Origin: a virus
Taxonomy: Duplodnaviria; Heunggongvirae; Uroviricota; Caudoviricetes
Length of the DNA stretch: 32,349 nucleotides
Virus record (IMG/VR): IMGVR_UViG_2917865565_000006
Coordinates: 1 to 32,349 of that record
Reading direction: 5' to 3' (one strand)
Shown here: positions 1,860 to 25,746 of the stretch, one piece after another
How positions within the stretch are numbered: the first letter of the stretch is position 1
Layout: every line of letters starts with the position of its first letter
Position numbers and translations under genes: made by a program
The notes under the pieces: generated by a model
The model's input: only the letters and a program-made list of their open reading frames with translations
What the model was told of the DNA's origin: nothing
The model's database searches: none

Positions 1860-2457
1860 ATGAACACTATAGTAGGAAACACGGCAGCTAAAAAAAATTC
1901 AATCGTTGATCATCGAGCTGCGCACGAGACTTTTGTCGATTGAAGGGCAATCTAACGTATCAGCCATAGTTGATGACATAGAAATTGAAGCGAAAAAATT
2001 AGAAGAAGAAGTTAATTTTCTGGCTTTACCTGTAAGAGCTGCAGAAATTGAGACTTTGACGCATTTAATTAAATGTGGATGTGTCAGGCTGGAAAATAAC
2101 AAAAGAGATGAACGTAATGAGATTATAAATAATTTACAAGAGTCATTTGCGTTAATCAGCCAGAATCAACATGCCCCAACTAAAACAAAAAGAAGCAAAT
2201 CAAGTAAATTTGAGGTTTTGCGTTTTGGTGATCTTTCTATTATTGGTTGCGAGCTAACCCCATTACGCAACTATGTGACTCTATACTGTAGAGCTTGTTA
2301 TGAAAATGACAGGTTTATCGGTCATGTGTACTACGGAGTATCAAAGTTATCGGGTGACGAAAAAGGTTATAGCGAATTTGATGCGCTGAGTATTATTAAT
2401 GCTGTAGAAAAATATGCGCCAGGAATGCAAAAATACTCATGGCGCAAAGTAGATTGA
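1860..2457 (+). CDS. Hypothetical protein in AT-rich moron island; probably starts at ATG 1860 and is broken by a +1 frameshift in an A8 run (1890-1897); the ORF track shows only 1906-2457
   Basis: Strong RBS GAGGG 7 nt upstream of ATG 1860; a 27-codon ORF in frame 0 becomes continuous with the 183-aa ORF if one A is removed from the A8 run (MNTIVGNTAAKK then IQSLIIELRTRLL...). No recognisable domain. Confidence 0.45.
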
Positions 2458-2459
2458 AA

Positions 2460-2666
2460 TTATTTTTCTTTATTCAGCTCTAAGTATTCGCCGATAGTAG
2501 CATGAAGATTTTTTAATTGCTCGAGTTGAATACTAATTGCAAGAACATTATCGCTTTTTAGGTTTAAGTCGGTATGAAGGTGTGCGAGTAGTCTCATCTT
2601 ACCCTCACTGACAATACCATCGATAGTGATTTTGTCTGGAAATACAGTAACAGTTTTTTTGTCCAT
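2460..2666 (-). CDS. Hypothetical small protein (68 aa from internal ATG), convergent with the upstream moron gene
   Basis: Minus-strand ORF; internal Met (MDKKTVTVFPDKITIDG...) preceded by AAGGTG RBS; the longer GTG-initiated form (to 2714) has no RBS. AT-rich. Confidence 0.45.
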   Translation of the reverse strand: MDKKTVTVFPDKITIDGIVSEGKMRLLAHLHTDLNLKSDNVLAISIQLEQLKNLHATIGEYLELNKEK

Positions 2667-2765
2667 TTTTACACCTTTTGTGGTTGGTTGTTTTTGGCGA
2701 TTCGATCTTACCACAAGACCATGTGCCGGACATGGCTAAAAACCGGCTCTGTTTCAGGAGGAGTT

Positions 2766-2936
2766 ATGCCGGAACCTCGTTGTATTGCTCAGTTATTGCG
2801 TAACGAAAGCCCAAGGGCGATTGACTTCACCATCACCCACGGTAAGGGGCGTAAGGGAATCATTATCCGCACCAAAAAACAGAGTCCGTTAAAAAAGGCT
2901 CTGACCTTTCTGAAAAGCCGGAGGGTATGGAAATGA
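2766..2936 (+). CDS. Small basic protein, orf78-like (56 aa)
   Basis: ATG at 2766 preceded by CAGGAGGAG RBS; immediately upstream of B and overlapping its start; position matches P2 orf78. Confidence 0.55.
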   Translation: MPEPRCIAQLLRNESPRAIDFTITHGKGRKGIIIRTKKQSPLKKALTFLKSRRVWK

Positions 2937-4247: not shown

Positions 4248-4519
4248 GTATTCGTATCGAAATTGGCGAACGTTATGTCGTTACCAGTGACAGCTTTCAG
4301 TTTATTCTCCACGAGAAAAAGAGAGCGGAAAGCGGTAAAAACGCTGGTCAGGAATGGCTGGCGGTGGTTGGTTATTACCCGAAATTAAGCCAGCTCGTTT
4401 CCGGCCTGATGCATCACGATATTCTGACCGGAAACGCAAAATCTTTTGCTGATTTAAACGCGCAGGTTGAGCAACTCAGCAAGCGTTGTTCAGAGGCTTT
4501 TGGCTCATATGGCCGTTAA
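4244..4519 (+). CDS. Early-operon hypothetical protein (orf83-like, 91 aa)
   Basis: ORF overlapping the start of A; position matches P2 orf83. Confidence 0.6.
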   Translation: MSIRIEIGERYVVTSDSFQFILHEKKRAESGKNAGQEWLAVVGYYPKLSQLVSGLMHHDILTGNAKSFADLNAQVEQLSKRCSEAFGSYGR

Positions 4520-6791
4520 AGCCTCCGGGCGTTTTGTCCCTCCGTCAGCATTTGCCGCAGGCACCGGTAAGGCGTTTACCGGTGCTTATGCATGGAACGC
4601 GCCACGCGAGGCCGTCGGGCGCGAAAGACCCCTTACACGTGACGAGATGCGTCAGGTGCAAGGTGTTTTATCCACGATTAACCGCCTGCCTTACTTTTTG
4701 CGCTCGCTGTTTACTTCACGCTATGACTACATCCGGCGCAATAAAAGCCCGGTGCACGGGTTTTATTTCCTCACATCCACTTTTCAGCGTCGTTTATGGC
4801 CGCGCATTGAGCGTGTGAATCAGCGCCATGAAATGAACACCGACGCGTCGTTGCTGTTTCTGGCAGAGCGTGACCACTATGCGCGCCTGCCGGGAATGAA
4901 TGACAAGGAGCTGAAAAAGTTTGCTGCCCGTATCTCATCGCAGCTTTTCATGATGTATGAGGAACTCTGCGATGCCTGGGTGGATGCGCATGGCGAAAAA
5001 GAATCGCTGTTTACGGATGAGGCGCAGGCACATCTGTATGGTCATGTTGCTGGCGCTGCACGTGCTTTCAATATTTCCCCGCTTTACTGGAAAAAATACC
5101 GTAAAGGGCAGATGACCACGAGGCAGGCATATTCTGCTATTGCCCGCCTGTTTAACGATGAGTGGTGGACTCATCAGCTTAAAGGCCAGCGTATGCGCTG
5201 GCATGAGGCGTTACTGATTGCTGTCGGGGAGGTCAATAAAGACCGTTCTCCTTATGCCAGTAAACATGCCATTCGTGATGTGCGTGCGCGCCGCCAGGCA
5301 AATCTGGAATTTCTTAAATCGTGTGACCTCGAAAACAGGGAAACCGGCGAGCGCATCGACCTTATCAGTAAGGTGATGGGCAGTATTTCTAATCCTGAAA
5401 TTCGCCGGATGGAGCTGATGAACACCATCGCCGGTATTGAGCGTTACGCCGCTGCAGAGGGTGATGTGGGGATGTTTATCACGCTGACCGCGCCGTCAAA
5501 GTATCACCCGACACGTCAGGTCGGAAAAGGCGAAAGTAAAACCGTCCAGCTAAATCACGGCTGGAACGATGAGGCATTTAATCCAAAGGATGCGCAGCGT
5601 TATCTCTGCCATATCTGGAGCCTGATGCGCACGGCATTCAAGGATAATGATTTACAGGTCTACGGTTTGCGTGTCGTCGAGCCACACCACGACGGAACGC
5701 CGCACTGGCATATGATGCTTTTTTGTAATCCACGCCAGCGTAACCAGATTATTGAAATCATGCGTCGCTACGCGCTCAAAGAGGATGGCGACGAAAGAGG
5801 AGCTGCGCGAAACCGTTTTCAGGCAAAACACCTTAACCGGGGCGGTGCTGCGGGATATATCGCGAAATACATTTCAAAAAACATCGACGGCTATGCACTG
5901 GATGGTCAGCTCGATAACGATACCGGCAGGCCGCTGAAAGACACTGCCGCGGCTGTTACCGCATGGGCGTCAACGTGGCGTATTCCGCAATTTAAAACTG
6001 TTGGCCTGCCGACAATGGGGGCTTACCGTGAACTACGCAAATTACCTCGCGGCGTCAGCATTGCTGATGAGTTTGACGAACGCGTCGAGGCTGCACGCGC
6101 TGCCGCAGACAGTGGCGATTTTGCGCTGTATATCAGCGCGCAGGGTGGGGCAAATGTCCCGCGCGATTGTCAGACTGTCAGGGTCGCCCGTAGTCCGTCG
6201 GATGACGTTAACGAGTACGAGGAAGAAGTCGAGAGAGTGGTCGGCATTTACGCACCGCATCTCGGCGCACGTCATATTCATATCACCAGAACGACGGACT
6301 GGCGCATTGTTCCGAAAGTGCCGGTCGTTGAGCCTTTGACTTTAAAAAGCGGCATCGCCGCGCCTCGGAGTCCTGTCAATAACTGTGGAAAGCTCACCGG
6401 CGGTGATACTTCGTTACCGGCTCCCACACCGACTGAGCATGCTGCAGCGGTGTTAAATTTAATAGATGAAGGGATTCTAAGTTGGACCGAGCCAGGCATT
6501 ATGAAGGTACTTAGAGACTTATTGAGTAATGAACTGAAATGCAGTAATCGTTCACAGCAGAGCTTTACCCCTTTCATTGGTCGAAGCTACTTTCCTGCCC
6601 CATCCGCCCGGTTGACAAGGCAGGAGAGAAAGACTATCCCGAAAATTAAGGTTCTTCTTGCACAAAGTGACATTCAGGCTAGTTATTGGGAGCTTGAAGC
6701 TCTCGCTCGCGGAGCTGTTTTGGATTTTGGGCATAAGCGTTTTAAATTTGATAACGATATCGACTTTTTTGACAGACAGCGTGAGTGGTAG
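4509..6791 (+). CDS. A: Replication initiation endonuclease gpA (rolling-circle initiator), 760 aa from ATG 4509
   Basis: Large ORF at the end of the early operon; HWHMMLF metal-binding motif; length from 4509 is within one residue of the 761 aa I recall for P2 A. The ORF-track start at 4467 is probably an in-frame extension. Confidence 0.9.
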   Translation: MAVKASGRFVPPSAFAAGTGKAFTGAYAWNAPREAVGRERPLTRDEMRQVQGVLSTINRLPYFLRSLFTSRYDYIRRNKSPVHGFYFLTSTFQRRLWPRIERVNQRHEMNTDASLLFLAERDHYARLPGMNDKELKKFAARISSQLFMMYEELCDAWVDAHGEKESLFTDEAQAHLYGHVAGAARAFNISPLYWKKYRKGQMTTRQAYSAIARLFNDEWWTHQLKGQRMRWHEALLIAVGEVNKDRSPYASKHAIRDVRARRQANLEFLKSCDLENRETGERIDLISKVMGSISNPEIRRMELMNTIAGIERYAAAEGDVGMFITLTAPSKYHPTRQVGKGESKTVQLNHGWNDEAFNPKDAQRYLCHIWSLMRTAFKDNDLQVYGLRVVEPHHDGTPHWHMMLFCNPRQRNQIIEIMRRYALKEDGDERGAARNRFQAKHLNRGGAAGYIAKYISKNIDGYALDGQLDNDTGRPLKDTAAAVTAWASTWRIPQFKTVGLPTMGAYRELRKLPRGVSIADEFDERVEAARAAADSGDFALYISAQGGANVPRDCQTVRVARSPSDDVNEYEEEVERVVGIYAPHLGARHIHITRTTDWRIVPKVPVVEPLTLKSGIAAPRSPVNNCGKLTGGDTSLPAPTPTEHAAAVLNLIDEGILSWTEPGIMKVLRDLLSNELKCSNRSQQSFTPFIGRSYFPAPSARLTRQERKTIPKIKVLLAQSDIQASYWELEALARGAVLDFGHKRFKFDNDIDFFDRQREW

Positions 6792-6880
6792 TTGAAAAAA
6801 ACGGTCAAACGGGGTAACAATATGTTATTGTTGAGGAATTGTTTGTTATGGTTTAATTTTTATACACGGCAGAAAAGCAT

Positions 6881-8106
6881 ATGAGCATGGTTGAATGGAT
6901 AAGCCACGAGAAAAAAGATAGCCTGATACTATTTGTACATGGATTAAATGGTGGTTTGGAAACATGGAACTTTAATAAAGAAACTTCATTTCCAAAACTA
7001 TTAGCAGAAGATGAAGACATTAGCAATGTATTTGATATTGCATGTTTCAATTATTTCACCAAATTTACACAAACGTATGCTAAAAACGTCAGGATTATTG
7101 GCTCGTATTTTCTCTAAGAAAAATAAGTTAGAGAGAAATTTACCAACTGATGAAATAGCTGAGTTATTGTATACTGAGATTAGGGTAACGCTAAGTGATT
7201 ACTCTCGAATTATAATAATCGCCCATAGTATGGGGGGGTTAATATCAAAAAATCTAATTCTAAAAAAAGTTGAGCATGAGGAACAATCTAATATAATTGG
7301 ATTCATTTCGTTAGCAGTCCCTCACTTTGGTGCTAAATTAGCGAATATAACTTCAATGGTATCTTCAAATGCTCAGTTAGTAGATCTTGGATTGTTAAGT
7401 GAAGCGACTGATACATTGAATAGGCGCTGGATAAATTGTAGCAAAAAACTTCCTATCACTAGATATGTTTATGGTTCTCATGACACTATAGTTGATAAAA
7501 AAAAGTGCATTACCGATGGATAGTGAACGAAATAACTCAATTGCAGTTAATGAAGGGCATAGCTCAATTTGCAAGCCCGAAAACAGCTCGTCTACAGTGT
7601 TTGTTGCGGTAAAGCAATTTATTCAGCAGATAAATTTAGAAGCACCCAAGAAGATATGCGTTGAGCGTTTTTCTGATGAGAAACAATATGATAATGAGTA
7701 TTTCGTCTTAAAAATGATTGTCGCAGATATACATCAGGATATCGCTATGCATGCAAAGGAATATTATTATAATGCTGAGCTTGCGAGAAATATTTTTACG
7801 AGTGATTACGATAGGAAACTACTTGGTCATTTGTATTCTAAAATAAGGGAGATTTACCAGGAAGAGTATGAGCAATACATCGCGAATTCAATTTCCCCAG
7901 ATAAATTTATTGCTGCTGTTCATAGACGAATAGCCCAGGAGGATAAGTCGTCGTTAGATTCTCTTATAAAAAGTTTAGAAACGATACATAAGAAAGGAAT
8001 GTTGCATCAACTGGCTAACAAAAATGACAGGGATATTGTCTGGTCATCCGAAACCAGCGTAGAAACTTTGGAGCAATTACGGCGAGGTAATCATGAAGAA
8101 AAATAA
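6881..8106 (+). CDS. Alpha/beta-hydrolase (lipase/esterase-like) candidate defense effector with C-terminal helical domain; reading frame broken twice (three ORF-track pieces 6881-7117, 7011-7523, 7492-8106)
   Basis: Oxyanion-hole motif LILFVHGLNGG (about 6935-6955), nucleophile elbow AHSMGG (Ser codon 7227-7229) and candidate His in EGHSSICKP lie in three different frames; pieces join if one A is removed from the A5 run at 7082-7086 and from the A8 run at 7497-7504. AT-rich, unlike the backbone. Confidence 0.6.
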
Positions 8107-8606
8107 CTTGCCGTATATTCCTCTTGATGAAGAGTATAGCTTGAATTTTGCTATACTTGCCATTGCTATATCTATATTATCTCATAGCAAAAAAGGAGTG
8201 TTATCATTAGATATTAATAAAATACAAATTTTTTATGTATCTGATAAAAAACCCATCAAAAATAGATTATGCTCTTACAGTTTCGGGGAAAAAACCTGCT
8301 TGTGTCGAGTCCCAGTTAACTTATACAATAAAGAGTTTTTCATCAAATGTAGATATCTTATTCGACAATTCCAAAGTGAAATATCTTATAAAAATTATGT
8401 CATTGCGGGGATTGCTCTCAGCTGAGAAAAAAAATAATGAGAGTGTTAAATTATTTTTATCTGAAAAAGGTAAGGAATTTGCTAGCTCATTGACTGATGG
8501 ATATTTTAAAGAAATAAAACGACTATCCGAAGCATTGTTACCGCTACAAGCATTGCCTACATCTAAGTTAAACTCTGTTATAAATCAAGTCTTCAAGGAG
8601 AAATGA
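8093..8606 (+). CDS. Small middle component of the candidate three-gene system (about 170 aa), frame broken once (pieces 8093-8425 and 8235-8606)
   Basis: Start ATG 8093 with GAGGT RBS overlaps the hydrolase stop; stop overlaps the ATPase start (ATGATGA at 8603); two overlapping ORFs in different frames joinable at an A6 run (about 8246-8300). No recognisable domain. Confidence 0.5.
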
Positions 8607-10574
8607 TGAAATCATATCTCAATATCAATAGTTTGATTCTTGTTGGCGTTCGTAAAAACTACGTCACTACTTTTTATAAAGGTCTCAATGTTATCTACGG
8701 AGACTCTGACACAGGTAAGTCAAGCATTCTGGAGTTTATTAATTATCTTTTAGGTGCTAGCTCTATAGATTTAGCAGATGAAATAAAAACATCAGTAAAC
8801 TATGCTGCTCTTGAAGTAGTGATCAATGATACTGTATTCACAATCGTAAGAGATATCTATGATCATAAAAAAGCAATAGAAGTTTATCGTTGTAAGTTTG
8901 ATGATTTACATAAACATTTTCCGAAAAAATACGCTCCTAATTATAGCCCCTTATCAAATGTTGATGGTGTTTTTTCGGAGTTTTTACTTGATAGTCTTAA
9001 TTTTCCAAAGATTGAAATTAAGGTGTCTCCTTCTAAAGCTCATTCACAGATGCGCAGGTTAAGTTTTAGAAATATATATAAATTTGTTTATGTAAGTCAG
9101 GATGATATTGGTAGTAAATCTTTCTTGCGATTGGGTGATTGGTCCCGCTACGCATTTACGAAAGAAGTTTTTAAATACATGTTCAATGTGTTGGATGAAA
9201 GCATCGCCAGACTCCAAGGTGAAATATCTGCAAAAAGTAGTTTAGTAACTGAATTAAATAAGAAGTATCAGATAATATCTGAATTTCTTCGCGATACAGA
9301 CTATGAAACAATTGAATCAATTGATGATGAGATTAATAGGATAGATCTTGTTTTAGAAGAACTTGTTGCAGGTTTGTCTGCTCTCGATAAAAATATGAAA
9401 GCGGATTCCATGCAGTATACAGAATTGAAAGATGCTCACAATTTTATTTCGCTTAAATACAAAGAGTGCATATTAAATATTAGTGCGCTTGAGGATAAGA
9501 TTGATAAATATTCGCGGTTAAAAAATGACTATGATAATGATATTGAAAAACTCAAAGCGATTAAAACAGCAAATTCTCGCATTGGTGTATTGGATAAGGA
9601 AGTATTTTCCTGTCCAATCTGTGATAGCCACATTAAAATAGATGATTCTGATTTTCCATTTGAAATTTCATCAGAAAAAGATCTTAATGAAGAGTTGAAT
9701 TCACTTAGTCGACGTAGACGAAATATTAATGACATGATCTCAGAAATGTCATTTAAATTAAAAAAAGAATCAGGTTATAAAAAAAGAATTAGATGAACGA
9801 CTTGACGAGTTGAGAGAGTTGATTGACGAAGAAAGCCAGTCAATGATTACACCATTCTTGACTCAGAGAGATTTTTATATTAAAGAGATATCAAAAAATG
9901 AGAAAGTTAGGGAGCAGTTAGTAAAAGATTTGAAGGTTAGAAACCAGCAAGAGGAACTGCTTGAAAAGTATCAGGTACTGAGAAAAGATATTGAAGCATT
10001 AACTGAACGCTTGGAGGCGTTAAAGAAAAACGCACCTAGCATGGAGGGCATTTTACAAGGTTTAGGTGATAGATTTAGTCAGTATTTGAAGGGTATTAAT
10101 ATCAAAAACAGAACGGGGATAAAAATCTCTGAAAGCTATTACATTCCTGTTATAAGAGAAAAAGAATATTTTAAAATAACGTCCGGAGGTTTGAGAACTA
10201 TTTCTTCTATTGGGTATCTTTTGTCTATTCTTGATTATGCAATAGATCATAATGTTAACCATCCTTTACTTTTGATATTTGATACGGTTGGCAAATATTT
10301 AGGGAAACAGACCAAGGAAAAATATTCAAAAGAAACTCTTGCAGTCGAGGATGACCTTGAGGGAATGTCAGATCCGATGAAGTATCAAAATATTTATGAA
10401 CAACTATTGAATACAGTTCAAAAAGCAGAAAGAAAAAATGTTCCGTGCCAGATTATATTAGTTGATAATGATTTGCCTAATTCGTTTTCTACTGGTGAAC
10501 TTTCGAATATTATCGCTCATTATAGCTCGGTTGGTGAGGACGGTTTGCCTTTAGGTTTAATTGATGACCTTTAA
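8603..10574 (+). CDS. Rad50/SMC-like ABC ATPase with coiled coil and CxxC zinc hook (about 657 aa if joined); frame broken once (pieces 8603-9796 and 9810-10574)
   Basis: N-terminal Walker A GDSDTGKSS, Q-loop-like VYVSQDD, long charged helical region, CPICDSH (9611-9631), then in the next ORF the signature-like TSGGLRTIS and Walker B LLLIFD; frame 0 is open from 9762 and joins if one A is removed from the A7 run 9779-9785. Confidence 0.65.
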
Positions 10575-10703
10575 TACTATACATGCATTTTTTTGAATTA
10601 GATTGCATGTGGATAATGAGTCTATTTAGTGAAGGGAGGGTTTTGTGAGACGAGACTTTCGATAAAAATGCAACCGCATTAAAACCGCCCCATGAAGCGG
10701 GCG

Positions 10704-10722
10704 GGCGAGGCGGGGAAAGCAC
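10704..10722. other. Candidate cos cohesive-end site (GGCGAGGCGGGGAAAGCAC) within a GC-rich packaging region
   Basis: 19-nt string matches the P2 cohesive-end sequence as I recall it; lies between the last rightward cargo gene and the minus-strand Q-P terminase/portal genes, where cos sits on the P2 map. Confidence 0.55.
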
Positions 10723-10890: not shown

Positions 10891-11880
10891 TCAGCCGTTG
10901 TCAGTGTCCAGTGAGTAGTTTTTAAAGCGGATGACCTCCTGACTGAGCCAGCCGTTTATTTCCCGAATCCTGTCCTGTAACGGGATAAGCTCATTGCGGA
11001 CAAAGACCTTTGCCACTTTCTCAATATCACCCAGCGACCCGACGTTCTCCGGCTTGCCCCCCATCAACTGAAAGGGGATGCGGTGCGCGTCCAGCAGGTC
11101 AGCGGCGCTGGCTTTTTTGATATTAAAAAAATCGTCCTTCGTTGCCACTTCACTGAGCGGGATAATTTTAATGCCGTCGGCTTTCCCCTGTGGGGCATAG
11201 AGAAACAGATTTTTAAAGTTATTGCGGCCTTTCGACTTAACCATGTTTTCGCGAAGCATTTCGATATCGTTGCGATCCTGCACGGCATCGGTGACGTACA
11301 TGATGTATCCGGCATGTGCGCCGTTTTCGTAATACTTGCGGCGGAACAGCGTGGCCGACTCATTCAGCCAGGCAGAGTTAAGGGCGCTGAGATATTCCGG
11401 CAGGCCGTACAGCTCCTGATTAATATCCGGCTCCAGCAGGTGAAACACTGAGCCGGGCGTGAAAGGTGTCGGCTCGTTGAAGGACGGCACCCACCAGTAA
11501 ACATCCTCCTCCACACCACGGCGGGTATATTTTGCCGGTGAGGTTTCCAGTCTGATGACCTTACCGGTGGTGCTGTATCGCTTTTCCAGAAACGCATTAC
11601 CGAACACCAGAAAATCCAGCACAAAGCGGCTGAAATCCTGTTGCGAAAGCCACGGATGCGGGATAAATGTCGAGGCCAGAATATTACGTTTGACGTAAAT
11701 CGGTGAGCTGTGATGCACGGCAGCACGCAGGCTTTTTGCCAGACCGGTAAAGCTGACCGGTGGCTCATACCATCTGCCGTTACTGATGCACTCGACGTAA
11801 TCCAGAATGTCACGGCGGTCGAGTACCGGCACCGGCTCACCAAAGGTGAATGCCTCCATTTTCGGGGCGCTGGCGGTCAT
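10891..11880 (-). CDS. Q: Portal protein gpQ (329 aa as called; P2 Q is about 344 aa from memory)
   Basis: Minus-strand ORF adjacent to cos and upstream of the large terminase, as in P2; N-terminus may be mis-called (see finding on the T8 run at 11881-11888). Confidence 0.85.
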   Translation of the reverse strand: MTASAPKMEAFTFGEPVPVLDRRDILDYVECISNGRWYEPPVSFTGLAKSLRAAVHHSSPIYVKRNILASTFIPHPWLSQQDFSRFVLDFLVFGNAFLEKRYSTTGKVIRLETSPAKYTRRGVEEDVYWWVPSFNEPTPFTPGSVFHLLEPDINQELYGLPEYLSALNSAWLNESATLFRRKYYENGAHAGYIMYVTDAVQDRNDIEMLRENMVKSKGRNNFKNLFLYAPQGKADGIKIIPLSEVATKDDFFNIKKASAADLLDAHRIPFQLMGGKPENVGSLGDIEKVAKVFVRNELIPLQDRIREINGWLSQEVIRFKNYSLDTDNG

Positions 11881-11925
11881 TTTTTTTTGCCGCAGGTCGC
11901 GGTGTTTTCCCTTTTTTCTTGCTCA

Positions 11926-13698
11926 TCAGTAAAACTCCAGAATGGTGGATGTCAGCGGGGTGCTGATACCGGCAGTGAGTGGCTCATTTAACAGGGCGTG
12001 CATGGTCGCCCAGGCGAGGTCGGCGTGGCTGGCTTCCTCGCTGCGGCTGGCCTCATAGGTGGCGCTGCGTCCGCTGCTGGTCATGGTCTTGCGGATAGCC
12101 ATAAACGAGCTGGTGATGTCGGTGGCGCTGACGTCATATTCCAGACAGCCACGACGGATAACGTCTTTTGCCTTGAGCACCATTGCGGTTTTCATTTCCG
12201 GCGTGTAGCGGATGTCGCGCGCGGCGGGATAGAACGAGCGCACGAGCTGGAACACGCCGACACCGAGGCCGGTGGCATCAATACCGATGTATTCGACGTT
12301 ATATTTTTCGGTGAGTTTGCGGATGGATTCCGCCTGGGTGGCAAAGTCCATGCCTTTCCACTGATGGCGCTCAAGTATTCTGAATTTGCCACCGGCCACC
12401 ACCGGCGGTGCCAGCACCACGCATCCGGCACTGTCGCCACGGTGTGACGGGTCGTAACCAATCCATACCGGGCGGGAGCCGAACGGATTCGCGGCAAACG
12501 GCGCATAGTCTTCCCATTCTTCCAGCGTGTCGACCATGCAGCGTTGCAGCTCCTCGAACGGGAATACCGACGCCTTGTCGTCAACAAATTCACACATGAA
12601 CAGGTTTTTAAAATCGTCGGCGCTGTTTTCACGTTTGAGCTGCTCAATGTCGAACAGCGTGCAGCCACCTTTCAGGGCGTCCTCAATGGTGACAATCTGC
12701 CGCCACTGGCCGTCCGCACAGAGAAGACCTCCGGCAAGGGCGTTATGACTGACGTCGATTTCCACGCGTTCGGCGGCGCTGGCGCGTCCCCGGTTGAACA
12801 GTTCACCCGACCAGAACGGGTAGGCGTCGTGCGCCAGCGTGGACGGGGTGGAGAAATAGGTCGAGCGCAGGTGACTCTGTGAGGCCATACCTGATGCCAC
12901 CTTACGCAGTACCTGAAAATTCGGGATCCAGAAAATCTCGTCGACGTACAGGTCGCCGTTATGGCTCTGTGCGGTGTTGGAGTTGGTGCCGAGAAAAATC
13001 AGTTTTGCGCCGTTATTGCCCAGGACAATCGGGTCACCGGTCAGGTCAACGTCAACCAGCCGGGCAAAGGCGATGATGTATTCACGGAACACATACGCCT
13101 GCGTTTTACTGGCCGACAGAAAAATCTGGTTATGACCGGTTTTCAGGGCGCGCAGCAGCGCCTCGCGGGAAAAATAAAACGTCGCGCCAATCTGGCGGGA
13201 TTTCAGGATATCGCGGATGCGGTGCTCAAGCCCGGCACGATACCAGTGCAACTGATAGTCGAAAGACTGCTCAAAGAAAATCTGCTCCAGCTTTTCGATG
13301 GCCTCGTCACTGAAAAAATTCTTTTTCGGTTTGCGCCGTCCGCCTTTGTTGCGGTTAGCGACGTTCGGATTAAGGTCTGCCTCGTTGCCGGTCTGACTGT
13401 AGCGGTTGACCCGTGCCAGTCGTTCAATCTGGCGTCCGAGCAGGTCAATTTCCTTGAAGTCACCACCGGTTTTCTGCGGTTTGATGATGAGCTGGGTCAG
13501 CCGCGCTTCCAGACTCATTTCGACACGGCTGATGGGGGCAACGCTGTCCCAGCCGTCGCGTTGTTTCCAGCTCTGCACCGTCGGGCGTTTCATCTGCAAC
13601 ATGGCGGCAATCTGCGGTACGGAAAACCCCTGCCAGTACAGCAGCGCCGCCTGACGACGCGGGTCGTGTAAAAGAGTGGTGTCTGTGGTGATGGTCAT
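11926..13698 (-). CDS. P: Terminase large (ATPase) subunit gpP, 590 aa from ATG at 13698
   Basis: Minus-strand ORF next to Q; start at MTITTDTT with GAGGT RBS gives 590 aa, equal to P2 P as I recall; N-terminal HTH-like region. Confidence 0.9.
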   Translation of the reverse strand: MTITTDTTLLHDPRRQAALLYWQGFSVPQIAAMLQMKRPTVQSWKQRDGWDSVAPISRVEMSLEARLTQLIIKPQKTGGDFKEIDLLGRQIERLARVNRYSQTGNEADLNPNVANRNKGGRRKPKKNFFSDEAIEKLEQIFFEQSFDYQLHWYRAGLEHRIRDILKSRQIGATFYFSREALLRALKTGHNQIFLSASKTQAYVFREYIIAFARLVDVDLTGDPIVLGNNGAKLIFLGTNSNTAQSHNGDLYVDEIFWIPNFQVLRKVASGMASQSHLRSTYFSTPSTLAHDAYPFWSGELFNRGRASAAERVEIDVSHNALAGGLLCADGQWRQIVTIEDALKGGCTLFDIEQLKRENSADDFKNLFMCEFVDDKASVFPFEELQRCMVDTLEEWEDYAPFAANPFGSRPVWIGYDPSHRGDSAGCVVLAPPVVAGGKFRILERHQWKGMDFATQAESIRKLTEKYNVEYIGIDATGLGVGVFQLVRSFYPAARDIRYTPEMKTAMVLKAKDVIRRGCLEYDVSATDITSSFMAIRKTMTSSGRSATYEASRSEEASHADLAWATMHALLNEPLTAGISTPLTSTILEFY

Positions 13699-22031: not shown

Positions 22032-22554
22032 TTCGCGACTGCTGCCGACCGGCTCATCACCGCTTGAGGTCGCCGCCGCAAAAGCCTGTGCGGAAATTGA
22101 AAAAACACCGGTCAGTATTCGTGAGCTGTGGAACCCGGACTCCTGTCCGGCAAATCTGCTGCCGTGGCTGGCGTGGGCGTTTTCGGTCGACAGGTGGGAT
22201 GAAAAGTGGCCGGAAGCGACAAAACGCGCCGTTATCCGCGATGCCTATTTCATCCACTGTCATAAAGGCACTATCGGCGCAATCCGGCGTGTGGTGGAGC
22301 CGCTCGGCTATCTCATTAACGTAAAGGAATGGTGGGAGACAAACGACCCGCCCGGAACCTTCCGCCTTGATATCGGCGTACTGGAAAGCGGCATCACGGA
22401 GGAGATGTATCTGGAAATGGAACGGCTGATTGCCGATGCCAAACCCGCAAGTCGCCACCTTATCGGTCTGAACATTATCCAGGACATTCCCGGCTATCTG
22501 TATACAGGCGGTGTGGTCTGTGATGGTGATGTTATTACTGTTTATCCCGGATAA
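22024..22554 (+). CDS. I: Baseplate protein gpI (176 aa)
   Basis: Synteny and length match P2 I. Confidence 0.85.
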   Translation: MSDSRLLPTGSSPLEVAAAKACAEIEKTPVSIRELWNPDSCPANLLPWLAWAFSVDRWDEKWPEATKRAVIRDAYFIHCHKGTIGAIRRVVEPLGYLINVKEWWETNDPPGTFRLDIGVLESGITEEMYLEMERLIADAKPASRHLIGLNIIQDIPGYLYTGGVVCDGDVITVYPG

Positions 22555-22564
22555 GTGAGAAACA

Positions 22565-25087
22565 ATGAGCACGAAATTTAAAACCGTTATCACTACTGCC
22601 GGAGCCGCAAAGCTGGCAGCCGCCACTGTCCCCGGCGGGAAAAAAGTAAACCTGTCTGCAATGGCCGTGGGTGACGGTAATGGCAAATTACCGGTGCCGG
22701 ATGCCGGTCAGACGAAACTGGTGCATGAGGTCTGGCGTCACGCTCTGAATAAAGTCAGCGTGGATAACAAGAATAAAAACTATATCGTGGCTGAACTGGT
22801 TGTACCGCCCGAAGTGGGCGGCTTCTGGATGCGTGAGCTTGGTCTGTATGACGATGCCGGAACACTGATTGCGGTATCCAACATGGCAGAAAGCTATAAG
22901 CCAGAACTGGCTGAAGGCTCCGGACGTGCGCAGACCTGCCGCATGGTTATTATTCTCAGCAACGTGGCGTCCGTTGAACTGAGTATTGATGCCAGCACGG
23001 TGATGGCGACGCAGGATTACGTCGATGACAAAATCGCAGAGCATGAGCAGTCCCGCCGCCATCCTGACGCCACGCTGACAGAAAAAGGCTTTACTCAGTT
23101 AAGCAGTGCAACAAACAGCACCAGTGAGTCATTGGCGGCAACGCCAAAAGCGGTCAAGGCAGCAAATGACAACGCAAATTCACGTCTGGCGAAAAATCAG
23201 AATGGTGCAGATATCCAGGATAAATCAGCTTTTCTGGACAATGTTGGCGTTACCAGCCTGACGTTTATGAAAAACAATGGCGAAATGCCGGTTGATGCTG
23301 ATCTGAATACGTTTGGTCCTGTTAAGGCTTATGTGGGTGTCTGGTATAAATCCACATCCTCCAACGCAACACTGGAGAAAAATTTCCCTGAAGACGGTGC
23401 AGTCGGTGTTCTTGAGGTATTCAATGGCGGTAATTTTGCAGGAATGCAGCGTTATACCACCAGAACTGGCAATGTTTATATGCGCAACCTTTCTGGCACC
23501 TGGAATGGCTCAGACGGTCCGTGGAGCTACTGGCGTCAGATTCAGTCAGCAACACGCCCCCTGAGTACAACCATTGACCTGAACACGCTCGGAGACGCAG
23601 AGCATCTTGGCTTATGGCGAAACAGTAGTGGCTCTATCGCTTCATTTGACCGCAACTATCCGGAAGAAGGAAGTTATGGTCAGGGACTCCTTGAAGTTCT
23701 TGAAGGTGGTGGGTACTCACGCATGCAACGCTACACGACCCGCCGTGGGAATGTATATGTTCGCTGCCTTTCTGCTACATGGAATGCAGAGAATCCACAG
23801 TGGGAACCGTGGTTAAGAGTCGGTCATCAGTCAGAGAGTCGTTATTACGACGGGGATTTGAATGATGTGACTTCACCAGGTATTTACAGCGTTACAGGGA
23901 AGGCGACAAACGGTCCAATGCAGGATACCGCTGGAGCGACACTGCTTGGGATACTGGAAGTAATCAGACGTTTTGATGGTGTATCTGTCTGGCAGCGTTA
24001 CACAACCACAGGGAAAGCAGAAACCACAAAGGGGCGCACTTTTGAGCGCATCTACGCCGGGAGCACATGGACTGAATGGCGAGAAGTATATAACTCCTTT
24101 TCGTTGCCCCTGAATCTGGGTATCGGCGGTGCAGTGGCAAAACTCACCAGCCTGGACTGGCAGACCTACGATTTTGTGCCGGGCAGTCTGATAACCGTTC
24201 GGCTTGATAACATGACCAATATTCCCGACGGTATGGACTGGGGCGTCATTGATGGCAACCTGATAAACATCTCAGTCGGTCCGAGTGATGATTCCGGTAC
24301 GGGGCGCTCAATGCATGTGTGGCGCAGCACTGTAAGTAAAGCGAACTACCGCTTTTTTATGGTGCGTATTTCAGGAAATCCGGGAAGCCGCACGATCACG
24401 ACAAGACGTGTGCCAATTATCGACGAAGCTCAGACATGGGCGGCGAAACAAACCTTCAGCGCCGGTCTTTCAGGCGAACTGTCCGGCAATGCTGCTACAG
24501 CTACAAAGCTGAAAACGGCACGAAATATTAATGGTGTCAAATTTGATGGCACCGGCGATATAAATATTAATACGCTGGTATCCCGGAATCGCGTCACAGC
24601 ATTAAGCGGGAGTGCAAAGGGGACGCCTGGTATTCAGATGTATGAGGCATATAACAATGGCTACCCTTACGCCTATGGCAATGTGCTTCATCTTACGGGA
24701 GTGTCCGCAGTTGGAGAAGGTGAGTTACTTATCGGCTGGAGCGGCACCAGTGGAGGTTACGCGCCAGCATATATCCGTTCAAGGCGGGATACAGATGATG
24801 CTCAATGGTCTGGATGGGCGCAAATTTATACGACAGCTCATAAACCATCGGCAGGTGATATTGGTGCTTATACTCAGGCGGAATGTAATTCGCGTTTTAT
24901 TACAGGTATTCGCTTAGGTGGTTTGTCATCCCTTCCAACGTGGAATGGTACTGGCTGGCATGACAGGTCAGGGCATGTTCTTACTGGTGTCGTCAATAGT
25001 AATACTGATGAATTAATTGATATCGCGCAGGCAAGACCTGTTCAGTATTGTATTAATGGCACATGGTATAACGCAGGGAGTATTTAA
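22565..25087 (+). CDS. H: Tail fiber protein gpH (840 aa, longer than the 669 aa I recall for P2 H), with three tandem repeat modules in the distal half
   Basis: N-terminus typical of P2-family fibers; three roughly 75-aa repeats each containing a QRYTT..GNVY/..TW-type core (about 23330-24095). Confidence 0.85.
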
Positions 25088-25617
25088 TGATGATGCATTT
25101 AAAAAATATTAAGGCAGGGAATCCAAAAACTATTGAACAATATGAATTAACCAAACGATTTAATATTGTCTGGCTATGGTCAGATGATGGTAAAAACTGG
25201 TATGAGGAACAAAAGAATTTCCAGCCAGACACTTTAAAAATGGCCTACGACGAGAACGGTATTATTCGTTGCATTGAGAAAGATGTGTCAATGCTCAACC
25301 CTGATGGCTTGAGTGTTGTTGAGTTACCGAATATAACCGCCAACCGTCGCGCTGATATTTCAGGTAACTGGATGTTCAAAGATGACACTGTAATTAAACG
25401 TGTATATACGGATGCAGAACGGCAGCAGCAAGCCGAAGTCCGAAAGTCAACCTTGCTTGCAGAAGCTGAGGCATTGATTCAGCCGCTGGAGCGTGCGGTC
25501 AGGCTGAATATGGCAACAGATGAGGAGCGCAGCCGACTGGAGGCATGGGAACGCTACAGCGTTCTGGTCAGTCGTGTGGATCCTGCAAATCCTGAATGGC
25601 CGGAACTACCACAATAA
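25087..25617 (+). CDS. G: Tail fiber assembly chaperone gpG (176 aa)
   Basis: Start overlaps the H stop (ATGA); AT-richer than the backbone; position matches P2 G. Confidence 0.8.
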
Positions 25618-25621
25618 ATAC

Positions 25622-25650
25622 AGGCGGGCGGATTGCCCGCCTTTTCTTTA
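25622..25650 (+). terminator. Rho-independent terminator after G
   Basis: AGGCGGGC-GGATT-GCCCGCCT hairpin followed by TTTCTTTATCTGTTGTTT. Confidence 0.75.
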
Positions 25651-25746
25651 TCTGTTGTTTCATCCACTGACCAGTCAGGACAAATAGCGTCTCATGCCCT
25701 GTACAACTGAAAATACCACTCACCCATTAACCACGGAGTTAAACGG

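What the first reader, a model, noticed from the sequence alone, without database searches (positions are those of the whole stretch)
6792..10600. AT-rich three-gene cargo operon at the P2 tin/old hotspot: candidate Lamassu / ABC-3C-like anti-phage system
Between replication gene A and cos, where P2 carries tin and old, the window holds a translationally coupled operon of much lower GC than the backbone. It encodes a serine alpha/beta-hydrolase, a small middle protein (about 170 aa) and a Rad50/SMC-like ABC ATPase with a zinc hook. Effector plus small protein plus SMC-like ATPase is the architecture described for Lamassu (LmuA-LmuC-LmuB / DdmABC-type order) and the broader ABC-3C family, which carry swappable N-terminal effector domains. 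The hydrolase-to-LmuA assignment is unverified, so this could be a new effector variant or an unclassified system. P2-type prophages are known to carry defence cargo at this locus.
Basis: partly seen in the sequence, partly recalled or inferred. Interest (0 to 1): 0.9.

Follow-up and report, generated by a model that had tools for sequence, protein, structure and literature searches.

The report
Known lipase-type Lamassu defence cassette
The AT-rich three-gene insert in this P2-like prophage is a well-documented Lamassu (ABC-3C) anti-phage system with a lipase-like effector, nearly identical to copies already annotated in about a hundred E. coli genomes, so it is real but ordinary.

Summary
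Window 6792-10600 is 32.8% GC against 53.2% elsewhere. It sits between P2 replication gene A and an exact P2 cos site, and carries three overlapping + strand genes.

Four +1 insertions in A/T homopolymers (7082, 7497, 8229, 9779) break the reading frames. Removing them gives proteins of 407, 170 and 656 aa.

All three proteins match PADLOC's LmuA, LmuC and LmuB models end to end (E = 4e-109, 2e-52, 2e-235). Pfam finds the ABC-3C markers CTD8 and MC4. A confident LmuB model best matches solved Lamassu LmuB chains, then Rad50.

The same cassette, at 97.6% identity or more, is in 96 of 5,426 complete E. coli genomes, including O157:H7 and E. coli B. PGAP already names it an ABC-three-component system. 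Lipase-type LmuA with CTD8 is described in the literature, and an E. coli lipase Lamassu has been shown to protect against lambda.

The hope of a new effector or an unclassified system is not supported. Two more +1 insertions of the same kind lie outside the cassette, one of them in the portal gene, so the frameshifts are probably sequencing artefacts. Verdict: already known, low interest.

The parts
4509..6791 (+). P2 gene A (replication endonuclease), the left boundary of the cargo hotspot
   Evidence: ORF. Annotated as replication endonuclease in the homologous E. coli prophages. Equivalent to P2 gene A.
6792..6880 (+). Intergenic leader of the cassette, with a weak sigma-70-like site (TTGAAA, 18 nt, AACAAT at 6792-6821)
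   Evidence: This is a consensus match only, and such matches are no more frequent here than in shuffled sequence. Sequence shown.
6881..8106 (+). lmuA, the effector (407 aa after repair). N-terminal alpha/beta-hydrolase of the DUF676/PGAP1/LCAT-like lipase/esterase type (about 6908-7602), with Ser116 at 7227-7229, Asp201 at 7482-7484 and His226 at 7558-7560. C-terminal ABC-3C CTD8 domain at 7675-8049. Broken in the window by +1 insertions at 7082 and 7497.
   Evidence: PADLOC LmuA PDLC03851, E = 3.6e-109, residues 3-406. Pfam CTD8 1.4e-35, DUF676 2e-9, PGAP1 1.6e-7. The triad is invariant in 34 homologs down to 42% identity. The N-terminal domain of the model matches alpha/beta-hydrolases in the PDB. 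Coordinates.
8093..8606 (+). lmuC, the middle component (170 aa after repair), ABC-3C MC4 family. Overlaps lmuA by 14 nt. Broken by a +1 insertion at 8229.
   Evidence: PADLOC LmuC PDLC03869, E = 2.4e-52. Pfam MC4 1.1e-26. PGAP name 'ABC-three component system middle component 4'.
8603..10574 (+). lmuB, a Rad50/SMC-like ABC ATPase (656 aa after repair). Walker A at 8699-8722 (K39). Coiled coil at about 9194-10028, with the zinc hook CPIC at 9611-9622. Signature SGGLRT at 10182-10199. Walker B LLLIFD-T at 10266-10286. Overlaps lmuC by 4 nt (ATGA). Broken by a +1 insertion at 9779.
   Evidence: PADLOC LmuB PDLC03862, E = 2.3e-235, residues 2-656. AlphaFold model of an 88%-identical homolog, pLDDT 85.5, with two long helices flanking the CxxC. 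Foldseek top hits are solved LmuB chains 9uxh_F, 9hqx_B, 9hqu and 9nyg_B, then Rad50. A profile hit to Salmonella LmuB 9hqu_A aligns the CPxC. Motifs are invariant in 35 homologs.
10704..10722 (+). P2 cos (19-nt cohesive-end sequence), the right boundary of the cargo hotspot
   Evidence: Exact match. cosR is annotated at the equivalent place in P2 NC_001895.
10891..11926 (-). Portal gene Q, flanking backbone. It carries a +1 insertion in a T9 run at 11880.
   Evidence: Annotated as phage portal protein in the homologous prophages.

Best explanation
This is a type II ('short') Lamassu / ABC-3C anti-phage system, lmuA-lmuC-lmuB, carried as lysogenic-conversion cargo in the gene A-cos hotspot of a P2-like E. 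coli prophage. That is the slot where P2 itself carries tin and old.

Components:
- LmuA is a Ser116-Asp201-His226 alpha/beta-hydrolase (the 'lipase' effector) fused to the ABC-3C docking and oligomerisation domain CTD8.
- LmuC is an MC4 middle component.
- LmuB is a compact Rad50/SbcC-like ABC ATPase with one CxxC zinc hook.

Shown here: the identity of all three components, their operon architecture, their conservation as a unit in unrelated mobile elements, and their location.

Inferred from published work on other Lamassu systems: an LmuB dimer plus LmuC holds one LmuA inactive through its C-terminal domain. The complex recognises DNA ends or replication intermediates of an invading phage. 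ATP-dependent head engagement then releases LmuA, which oligomerises through the CTD and becomes active. The infected cell dies, which is abortive infection.

Inferred from family resemblance only: the hydrolase attacks a lipid or other ester substrate, most likely membrane phospholipid, rather than DNA.

The four frameshifts in the window are most likely homopolymer sequencing or assembly errors rather than real inactivation.

Confidence by step: about 0.95 that it is a Lamassu of this subtype, about 0.8 that the frameshifts are artefacts, about 0.6 for the release-and-oligomerise mechanism in this subtype, and about 0.4 for a membrane-lipid target.
For: Family identity:
- Full-length PADLOC matches: LmuA 3.6e-109, LmuC 2.4e-52, LmuB 2.3e-235.
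- Pfam CTD8 1.4e-35, MC4 1.1e-26, and DUF676, PGAP1, Abhydrolase_1 and LCAT on the N-terminal domain of LmuA.
- LmuB model (pLDDT 85.5) best matches solved LmuB chains at E = 8e-21 to 3e-14, ahead of Rad50, SMC and JetC.
- A profile of 35 LmuB homologs hits Salmonella LmuB 9hqu_A at 1e-9 with the CPxC aligned.
- The catalytic triad, Walker A, CxxC and signature motif are invariant across homologs down to about 42% identity.

Operon as a unit: the same three-gene order with overlapping genes recurs in a degenerate P2 in Pantoea, among conjugative-transfer genes (TraG-D_C, DtrJ-like) in P. aeruginosa, and in Methylomonas.

Distribution: 96 of 5,426 complete E. coli genomes carry the cassette at 97.6% identity or more, annotated as ABC-three component system.

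Location: between gene A and an exact cos site.

Literature:
- Lamassu and ABC-3C are the same family, and alpha/beta-hydrolase is a listed effector type (PMC10586767).
- An E. coli lipase-type short Lamassu with a zinc hook protects against lambda-vir. Its lipase His and its LmuB Walker A Lys are both required (PMC12663957).
- LmuA is sequestered, DNA ends are sensed, and LmuA is released and oligomerises.
- Lipase LmuA of the CTD8 and CTD9 families is predicted to oligomerise.
- Lamassu family members have been seen in prophage defence hotspots.

Frameshifts as artefacts:
- All six uncompensated indels in the window are +1 insertions in A/T runs. Two lie outside the cassette, one of them in the essential portal gene.
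- None of the 60 sampled E. coli genomes (of 96 carrying the cassette) has the window's cassette length.
- Differences from the O157 copy are 20 synonymous and 10 nonsynonymous codons, which indicates purifying selection.
Against: - As written, the window encodes no intact copy of any of the three genes. If the insertions are real, the system is dead here.
- No experiment exists on this exact cassette. The tested 'Ec-Lipase' has different residue numbers (K42 and H215, against K39 and H226 here), so it is probably a different homolog. I could not obtain its sequence.
- The substrate of the hydrolase is unknown. Fold matches are generic alpha/beta-hydrolases (esterases, monoacylglycerol lipases, thioesterases, phospholipases) with low TM scores.
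- The CTD8 part of the LmuA model is low confidence, so oligomerisation was not tested.
- Walker B is Asp-Thr in this clade, not the Asp-Gln reported for the solved systems. The ATP cycle may therefore differ.
- Published structures disagree on the role of ATP.
Confidence: 0.85

Rival explanations
1. The cassette in this particular prophage is a genuinely decayed Lamassu. The four frameshifts are real mutations, each of the three genes is inactivated, and the prophage itself is defective (portal also frameshifted). It is a relic with no current function.
For: The sequence as given has +1 frameshifts in lmuA (two), lmuC and lmuB and in portal Q. Natural lesions of this cassette do occur. REL606 has a 2-bp insertion splitting lmuC, and 3 of 60 sampled genomes have a cassette 1 bp shorter than the rest. 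Lamassu is toxic when overexpressed, so loss could be selected.
Against: All six uncompensated indels in the window are of one type: +1, in A/T homopolymers only. That is the signature of a technical error mode, not of independent mutations. Apart from the frameshifts the genes show purifying selection (20 synonymous, 10 nonsynonymous differences) and no stop codons or deletions. None of the 60 sampled genomes (of 96) shares any of these insertions. A recent survey reports that defence pseudogenes are rare in P2.
Confidence: 0.15
2. The system's main role is not protection against lytic phages. It acts against other mobile DNA, either eliminating plasmids as DdmABC does, or excluding competing temperate phages or P4-type satellites. 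It would benefit the prophage rather than the host.
For: Type II Lamassu DdmABC restricts plasmids as well as phages. Sensing of DNA ends and replication origins is not phage-specific. The cassette rides on mobile elements: P2 prophages, and a P. aeruginosa locus flanked by conjugative-transfer genes.
Against: This is a difference in target range, not in kind. The related E. coli lipase Lamassu protects against lambda-vir. No data here bear on plasmids or satellites.
Confidence: 0.1
3. The A/T homopolymers are slippage-prone switches that turn a toxic abortive-infection system on and off (phase variation). On this view the window captures an 'off' state.
For: All lesions are single-base length changes in A/T tracts within AT-rich cargo. 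The system is toxic at high expression.
Against: Four simultaneous 'off' changes are redundant for a switch. 56 of 60 sampled genomes share one cassette length, and none shows variation at these tracts matching the window. The tracts are short (4-7 nt in the intact form). The same +1 pattern hits an unrelated ORF and the portal gene.
Confidence: 0.03

Closest known systems
Lamassu 'Ec-Lipase' (short Lamassu clade H; Haudiquet et al., PNAS 2025, PMC12663957)
   Same: It is from E. coli and has three genes, a lipase-type LmuA, an LmuC, and a short LmuB with a CxxC zinc hook. It requires the Walker A Lys and the catalytic His, protects against lambda-vir, and is toxic when over-induced.
   Different: The published mutant numbering (LmuB K42, LmuA H215) does not match this cassette (K39, H226). 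It is therefore probably a different homolog. Its sequence and source strain were not available to me.
DdmABC / Lamassu Vc-Cap4 (V. cholerae) and the Salmonella enterica LmuACB complex (PDB 9NY5, 9NYG, 9HQU, 9HQX)
   Same: The A-C-B operon order is the same. The LmuB fold is the best structural match for this LmuB, and a profile-level sequence match aligns the hook in the Salmonella protein. The presumed logic is shared: sequestration, DNA-end sensing, release and oligomerisation.
   Different: Their effector is a Cap4 nuclease with CTD7 and their middle component is MC3. Here the effector is an alpha/beta-hydrolase with CTD8 and the middle component is MC4. The V. cholerae clade has lost the zinc hook, which is present here. 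Walker B is Asp-Gln there and Asp-Thr here. Single-sequence searches find no PDB hit at all.
ABC-3C systems as classified by Krishnan, Burroughs, Iyer and Aravind (2020)
   Same: The effector carries a family-specific C-terminal domain (CTD8), the middle component is MC4, and there is an ABC ATPase. These Pfam families come from that classification.
   Different: None. This is the same family under another name.
Rad50-Mre11 / SbcCD DNA-repair complex
   Same: Both have a coiled-coil ABC ATPase with a CxxC zinc hook and sense DNA ends. It is the proposed evolutionary ancestor. It is the second tier of fold matches, and there are weak NCBIfam Rad50 and SMC hits.
   Different: LmuB is much shorter (656 aa). 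There is no Mre11 nuclease partner; the partners are LmuC and a hydrolase effector. It sits on a prophage, not among core genes. All NCBIfam Rad50 and SMC scores are far below their cut-offs.
P2 tin and old (lysogenic-conversion genes at the same locus)
   Same: Both are non-essential anti-phage cargo between gene A and cos. old is also an ABC-type ATPase-nuclease, a point that rests on my own knowledge.
   Different: The proteins are unrelated. tin and old are on the opposite strand (minus strand in P2). They are one-gene systems, whereas this is a three-gene complex.

Membership tests
Lamassu family (type II / short) = ABC-3C | LmuB: an SMC/Rad50-like ABC ATPase with split head and coiled coil | tested here: met
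   PADLOC LmuB at 2.3e-235 over the full length. In the model of an 88%-identical homolog, long helices span residues 198-325 and 357-474 between N- and C-terminal head halves. Foldseek top hits are solved LmuB chains. Walker A, the signature motif and the Walker B Asp are present and invariant.
Lamassu family (type II / short) = ABC-3C | LmuC / middle component encoded between the effector and the ATPase | tested here: met
   Pfam MC4 at 1.1e-26 and PADLOC LmuC at 2.4e-52. The gene lies between lmuA and lmuB and overlaps both.
Lamassu family (type II / short) = ABC-3C | LmuA: a variable N-terminal effector domain fused to an ABC-3C C-terminal domain (CTD) | tested here: met
   Alpha/beta-hydrolase at residues 10-208 and CTD8 at residues 265-389, E = 1.4e-35. 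PADLOC LmuA at 3.6e-109. Two other LmuA models match only the CTD region.
Lamassu family (type II / short) = ABC-3C | The three genes are conserved as one operon across unrelated hosts and elements | tested here: met
   The same order and overlaps are found in Pantoea, P. aeruginosa and Methylomonas loci and in 96 E. coli genomes.
Lamassu family (type II / short) = ABC-3C | Anti-phage (abortive infection) activity that depends on the ATPase, LmuC and the effector's catalytic residues | not testable with these tools
   This has been shown only for other family members, including an E. coli lipase-type system of unknown identity to this one.
Lamassu family (type II / short) = ABC-3C | Intact reading frames in this window | tested here: not met
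   Four +1 insertions break all three genes. They are probably sequencing artefacts. This affects whether the copy is functional, not which family it belongs to.
Short Lamassu, lipase subtype with zinc hook (clade H of Haudiquet et al.) | LmuB of about 600-660 aa with a CxxC hook at the coiled-coil apex | tested here: met
   LmuB is 656 aa. CPIC lies at residues 337-340, between the two long helices. C336, P337 and C339 are invariant in 35 homologs. The motif aligns with the CPMC of Salmonella LmuB.
Short Lamassu, lipase subtype with zinc hook (clade H of Haudiquet et al.) | Serine-hydrolase (lipase-like) effector with an intact catalytic triad | tested here: met
   S116, D201 and H226 are invariant in 34 homologs. 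The domain is confidently modelled as an alpha/beta-hydrolase. Lipase activity itself was not tested.
Short Lamassu, lipase subtype with zinc hook (clade H of Haudiquet et al.) | Placement in that clade of the published LmuB tree / DefenseFinder subtype label | not tested
   DefenseFinder and the published tree are not available here. PADLOC model names carry no subtype label.
P2 gene A-cos defence hotspot cargo | Inserted between replication gene A and cos/portal Q of a P2-like (Peduovirus) genome, with foreign base composition | tested here: met
   Gene A ends at 6791, cos is at 10704-10722, and the portal starts at 10891. GC is 32.8% against 53.2%. A sister prophage with a 97%-identical backbone carries a different cassette in the same slot. 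The hotspot is described in the literature.
Rad50/SbcC DNA-repair ATPases | Reaches the family's curated score and is partnered with an Mre11/SbcD nuclease | tested here: not met
   NCBIfam Rad50 and SMC hits score 17-54 bits against cut-offs of 300-1000. There is no Mre11/SbcD gene in the operon. The resemblance is at fold level only.

The most novel reading that the evidence does not exclude
The CTD8-lipase clade may be a mechanistically distinct branch of Lamassu. Its LmuB has an invariant Asp-Thr after the Walker B strand, with neither the catalytic Glu nor the Gln seen in the solved systems. It may therefore act as a pure ATP-binding switch. Its released effector would kill through a non-DNA target, such as membrane lipid or some other ester, after forming oligomers that are not the cyclic tetramers of the nuclease systems. 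The substrate and the activation geometry of lipase LmuA are still unknown, and nothing here excludes a new killing mode.
Probability: 0.25. Interest if true: 0.45.

Novelty: already known. Interest (0 to 1): 0.15.

Why it matters
It matters little as a discovery. PADLOC recognises the cassette, PGAP names it, and it is present in well-studied strains (O157:H7 and E. coli B). It belongs to a subtype whose antiviral activity has been shown for an E. coli relative.

It has three minor uses:
- It is a clean example of Lamassu-for-Lamassu cargo swapping at the P2 gene A-cos hotspot. A prophage with a 97%-identical backbone holds a different Lamassu subtype in the same slot, still annotated as 'hypothetical'.
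- Lipase-type Lamassu effectors have no known substrate, so an easily available E. coli copy is a convenient model.
- Frameshifted genes in this assembly should be read as probable homopolymer errors.

Tried and rejected
Searches that found nothing useful:
- Single-sequence phmmer of LmuB, LmuA and LmuC against the PDB found nothing of use. Only a 35-sequence profile reached a solved LmuB.
- I searched the C-terminal head of LmuB alone against the PDB, hoping to align Walker B with the solved LmuBs. It gave only chance hits. The Asp-Thr assignment therefore rests on position: a beta-strand hhhhD 28 residues after the signature motif.
- I looked for the source or sequence of the published 'Ec-Lipase'. 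No supplements are held and no strain is named in the text. Whether it is the same as this cassette is unresolved, though the numbering suggests it is not.
- GenBank phage records hold no DNA or protein relative of the cassette. It is known from prophages in bacterial genomes, not from deposited phage genomes.
- Rfam finds no RNA family anywhere in the window.

Limits of the models and scans:
- The CTD8 half of the LmuA model is low confidence, so no comparison with solved LmuA CTDs was possible. The fold search reports only generic alpha/beta-hydrolases.
- Promoter-like sites in the region are no more frequent than in shuffles (12 found, 17.4 expected). I make no promoter claim.

Readings considered and rejected:
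- 'New effector variant or unclassified system': the LmuA HMM covers the whole protein, and lipase-CTD8 LmuA is in the literature.
- 'Phase-variable switch': rejected on the population data.


Full report
**The observation**

The window has a sharp compositional island. Positions 6792-10600 are 32.8% GC and the rest is 53.2%.

The island begins one base after the stop of the P2-type replication gene A (4509-6791). It ends about 100 nt before an exact copy of the 19-nt P2 cohesive-end sequence at 10704-10722 (0.02 matches expected by chance). The portal gene Q follows on the other strand from 10891. In reference P2 the interval between A and cosR holds orf91, tin and old.

The raw + strand ORFs of the island change frame repeatedly.

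**The frameshifts**

I aligned the window to intact copies from E. coli O157:H7 TW14359, SCU-115 and E. coli B REL606. The window has four extra bases, each inside an A/T homopolymer: 7082 (A5 vs A4), 7497 (A8 vs A7), 8229 (T6 vs T5) and 9779 (A7 vs A6).

Deleting them restores three genes:
- lmuA, 6881-8106, 407 aa;
- lmuC, 8093-8606, 170 aa;
- lmuB, 8603-10574, 656 aa.

The proteins are 404/407, 168/170 and 651/656 identical to the O157 proteins. The genes overlap by 14 and 4 nt.

The same kind of lesion occurs twice outside the cassette. There is a +1 in a T9 run at 11880, inside the essential portal gene. There is a +1 in an A8 run at 1890 that clips an unrelated ORF.

All six uncompensated indels in the window are +1 insertions in A/T runs. 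The cassette genes hold 47 of the window's 173 A/T runs of five bases or more. An excess of lesions there is therefore expected under an error model that scales with homopolymers.

Among 60 sampled E. coli genomes, out of the 96 that carry the cassette, 56 have the intact length, three are 1 bp shorter and REL606 is 2 bp longer. None has the window's length.

Codon differences from the O157 copy are 20 synonymous and 10 nonsynonymous, which indicates purifying selection. I conclude with about 80% confidence that the frameshifts are sequencing or assembly artefacts. Only reads or resequencing can settle it.

**What it is**

PADLOC models match all three repaired proteins end to end:
- LmuA PDLC03851, E = 3.6e-109, residues 3-406;
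- LmuC PDLC03869, E = 2.4e-52;
- LmuB PDLC03862, E = 2.3e-235, residues 2-656.

Pfam finds the two ABC-3C-specific domains: CTD8 in LmuA (residues 265-389, 1.4e-35) and MC4 in LmuC (1.1e-26). It also finds DUF676, PGAP1, Abhydrolase_1 and LCAT on the N-terminal domain of LmuA, and AAA_23 on LmuB. NCBIfam gives only sub-threshold SMC and Rad50 hits for LmuB.

PGAP already labels the near-identical E. coli copies 'ABC-three component system protein', 'ABC-three component system middle component 4' and 'AAA family ATPase'.

In 34 LmuA homologs spanning 42-100% identity, the nucleophile-elbow Ser, the Asp and the His (S116, D201, H226 in the 407-aa numbering) are invariant. In 35 LmuB homologs, Walker A, the CPxC motif, the ITSGGLRT signature and a Walker B Asp-Thr are invariant.

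**Structure**

The AlphaFold model of LmuA is confident only in the hydrolase domain (about 90 pLDDT); the CTD is poorly modelled. It matches generic alpha/beta-hydrolases: serine hydrolase FphH, carboxylesterases, monoacylglycerol lipases, thioesterases and the phospholipases PlaF and PlaB. This confirms the fold but does not reveal the substrate.

The LmuB model was built on an 88%-identical homolog and has a mean pLDDT of 85.5. It shows N- and C-terminal head halves joined by two long helices, with the CxxC between them. Its best PDB matches are the LmuB chains of solved Lamassu complexes: 9uxh_F at 8e-21, then 9hqx_B, 9hqu, 9nyg_B and 9ux7_A. After those come Rad50, SMC heads, JetC and MukB.

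A sequence profile of the LmuB family reaches Salmonella LmuB (9hqu_A, E = 1e-9), with the CPxC motifs aligned. That criterion is clearly not met.

**Context elsewhere**

The cassette at 97.6% identity or more is in 96 of 5,426 complete E. coli genomes, always on the chromosome. The list includes many O157:H7 strains and E. coli B. In TW14359 it sits in a complete P2-like prophage between yegQ and yegR.

More distant homologs (79%, 50% and 44% LmuA identity) keep the same three-gene order and overlaps. They occur in a degenerate P2 remnant in Pantoea, next to conjugative-transfer genes (TraG-D_C, DtrJ-like) in P. aeruginosa, and in Methylomonas. The operon is therefore a mobile unit.

No GenBank phage record holds a relative. 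Plasmids hold only distant LmuBs.

**How it most likely works**

Reviews and primary papers equate Lamassu types I and II, 'Lamassu-like' systems, ABC-3C and DdmABC. They list alpha/beta-hydrolase among LmuA effector domains.

Cryo-EM work on the V. cholerae and Salmonella systems gives the following picture. One LmuA is held by two LmuB and one LmuC through its CTD. [quoted passage not shown] Released LmuA then tetramerises through the CTD and becomes active.

Haudiquet et al. also validated an E. coli 'Ec-Lipase' short Lamassu with a zinc hook. It protects against lambda-vir. It needs LmuB K42 and the lipase H215, and its predicted A-B, B-C, A-C and DNA interfaces are required. Li et al. note lipase LmuAs of the CTD8 and CTD9 families. 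These are predicted to form dimers or larger rings rather than tetramers, and how oligomerisation activates them is unknown.

I therefore assign this cassette to that subtype and adopt the sequester, sense, release and oligomerise model for it. The component identities are shown here. The regulatory logic is inferred from homologous systems. A lipid or membrane target is inferred only from the Pfam families the hydrolase resembles (DUF676, PGAP1 and LCAT, all lipid-ester hydrolases).

The residue numbers of the tested Ec-Lipase (K42, H215) differ from those here (K39, H226). It is therefore probably not the same protein, and I could not retrieve its sequence.

**Rivals**

- A genuinely decayed operon, about 15%. 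This is the sequence as written, and REL606 shows that real lesions occur. The uniform +1 A/T pattern, its spread to the portal gene, and the purifying-selection signal argue against it.
- A primarily anti-plasmid or anti-satellite role, about 10%. This would be a change of target range, not of kind.
- Phase variation, about 3%. The population data contradict it.

**Novelty and score**

The feature is already known. The family, the subtype, the domain combination, the hotspot and even this exact sequence are in current databases and papers.

What remains open is general to lipase Lamassu systems: the substrate, the activation geometry and the meaning of the Asp-Thr Walker B. This window does not make those questions newly testable. 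Interest is 0.15.

Noticed in passing
window 11880-11888 (portal gene Q, minus strand): A T9 run carries one base more than in two independent E. coli prophages. This frameshifts the essential portal gene: the ORF is 329 aa here against 344 aa in the references. It is the same error type as in the cassette.
   Followed up: partly
window 1860-2770: A second AT-rich patch (35.6% GC at 2001-2500) lies just downstream of the Cox-like regulator. It holds two orphan ORFs: 1906-2457 on the + strand (183 aa here, 198 aa in E. coli EC812A1 because the window has a +1 in the A8 run at 1890) and 2460-2714 on the - strand (84 aa). Neither has any Pfam, PHROG or PADLOC hit. The stretch occurs in about 60 E. 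coli genomes, 9 of them holding at least 80% of it, and is absent from the O157 prophage. It lies in the minor integrase-to-primase cargo zone described for P2. It is a possible uncharacterised accessory module.
   Followed up: partly
L003 2397-5806 (E. coli EC556, NZ_AP027440.1): A prophage whose backbone is 97% identical to the window carries a different cassette in the same A-cos slot. Its three genes (302, 154 and 673 aa) are annotated 'hypothetical protein'. PADLOC identifies them as another Lamassu subtype: LmuA PDLC03852 at 1e-29, LmuC PDLC03871 at 2e-23 and LmuB PDLC03863 at 1e-98. This is a Lamassu-for-Lamassu swap at one hotspot.
   Followed up: yes
L010 4490-5004 (E. coli B REL606, NC_012967.1): REL606 carries this cassette at 97.6-97.7% identity, but lmuC is split into 50-aa and 121-aa ORFs by a 2-bp TG insertion. 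Other E. coli B genomes have the intact cassette length. The system may be inactive in REL606 specifically.
   Followed up: partly
window 10266-10286 (LmuB residues 555-561): The residue after the Walker B Asp is Thr (LLLIFD-T), and this is invariant in 35 homologs. The published LmuB proteins are described as having Gln at this position, and canonical ABC ATPases have Glu. The assignment is by position only. A direct alignment to the solved LmuB heads could not be obtained.
   Followed up: partly
E. coli genomes H118, H119 and H123 (strain 472, ATCC 43889, O157:H7 SS17): In these three complete genomes the cassette is 1 bp shorter than in the other copies, and two of them (H118, H119) carry an extra 'hypothetical protein' annotation. 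These are sporadic frameshifts, real or technical, in otherwise identical cassettes.
   Followed up: no
L005 3547-14103 (Pantoea sp. CCBC3-3-1, CP034363.1): The homologous cassette (79% LmuA identity) sits between a 129-aa fragment of phage gene A and a split portal gene, which is a decayed P2 remnant. Extra genes (DUF8209, DUF1493 and an unknown 247-aa ORF) lie between lmuB and the portal.
   Followed up: no
window 22457-25655: This stretch does not align to the O157:H7 P2-like prophage, which carries tail-fibre and invertase genes between the flanking aligned regions. It includes a low-GC dip (41% at 25001-25500). It is probably host-range cassette exchange.
   Followed up: no
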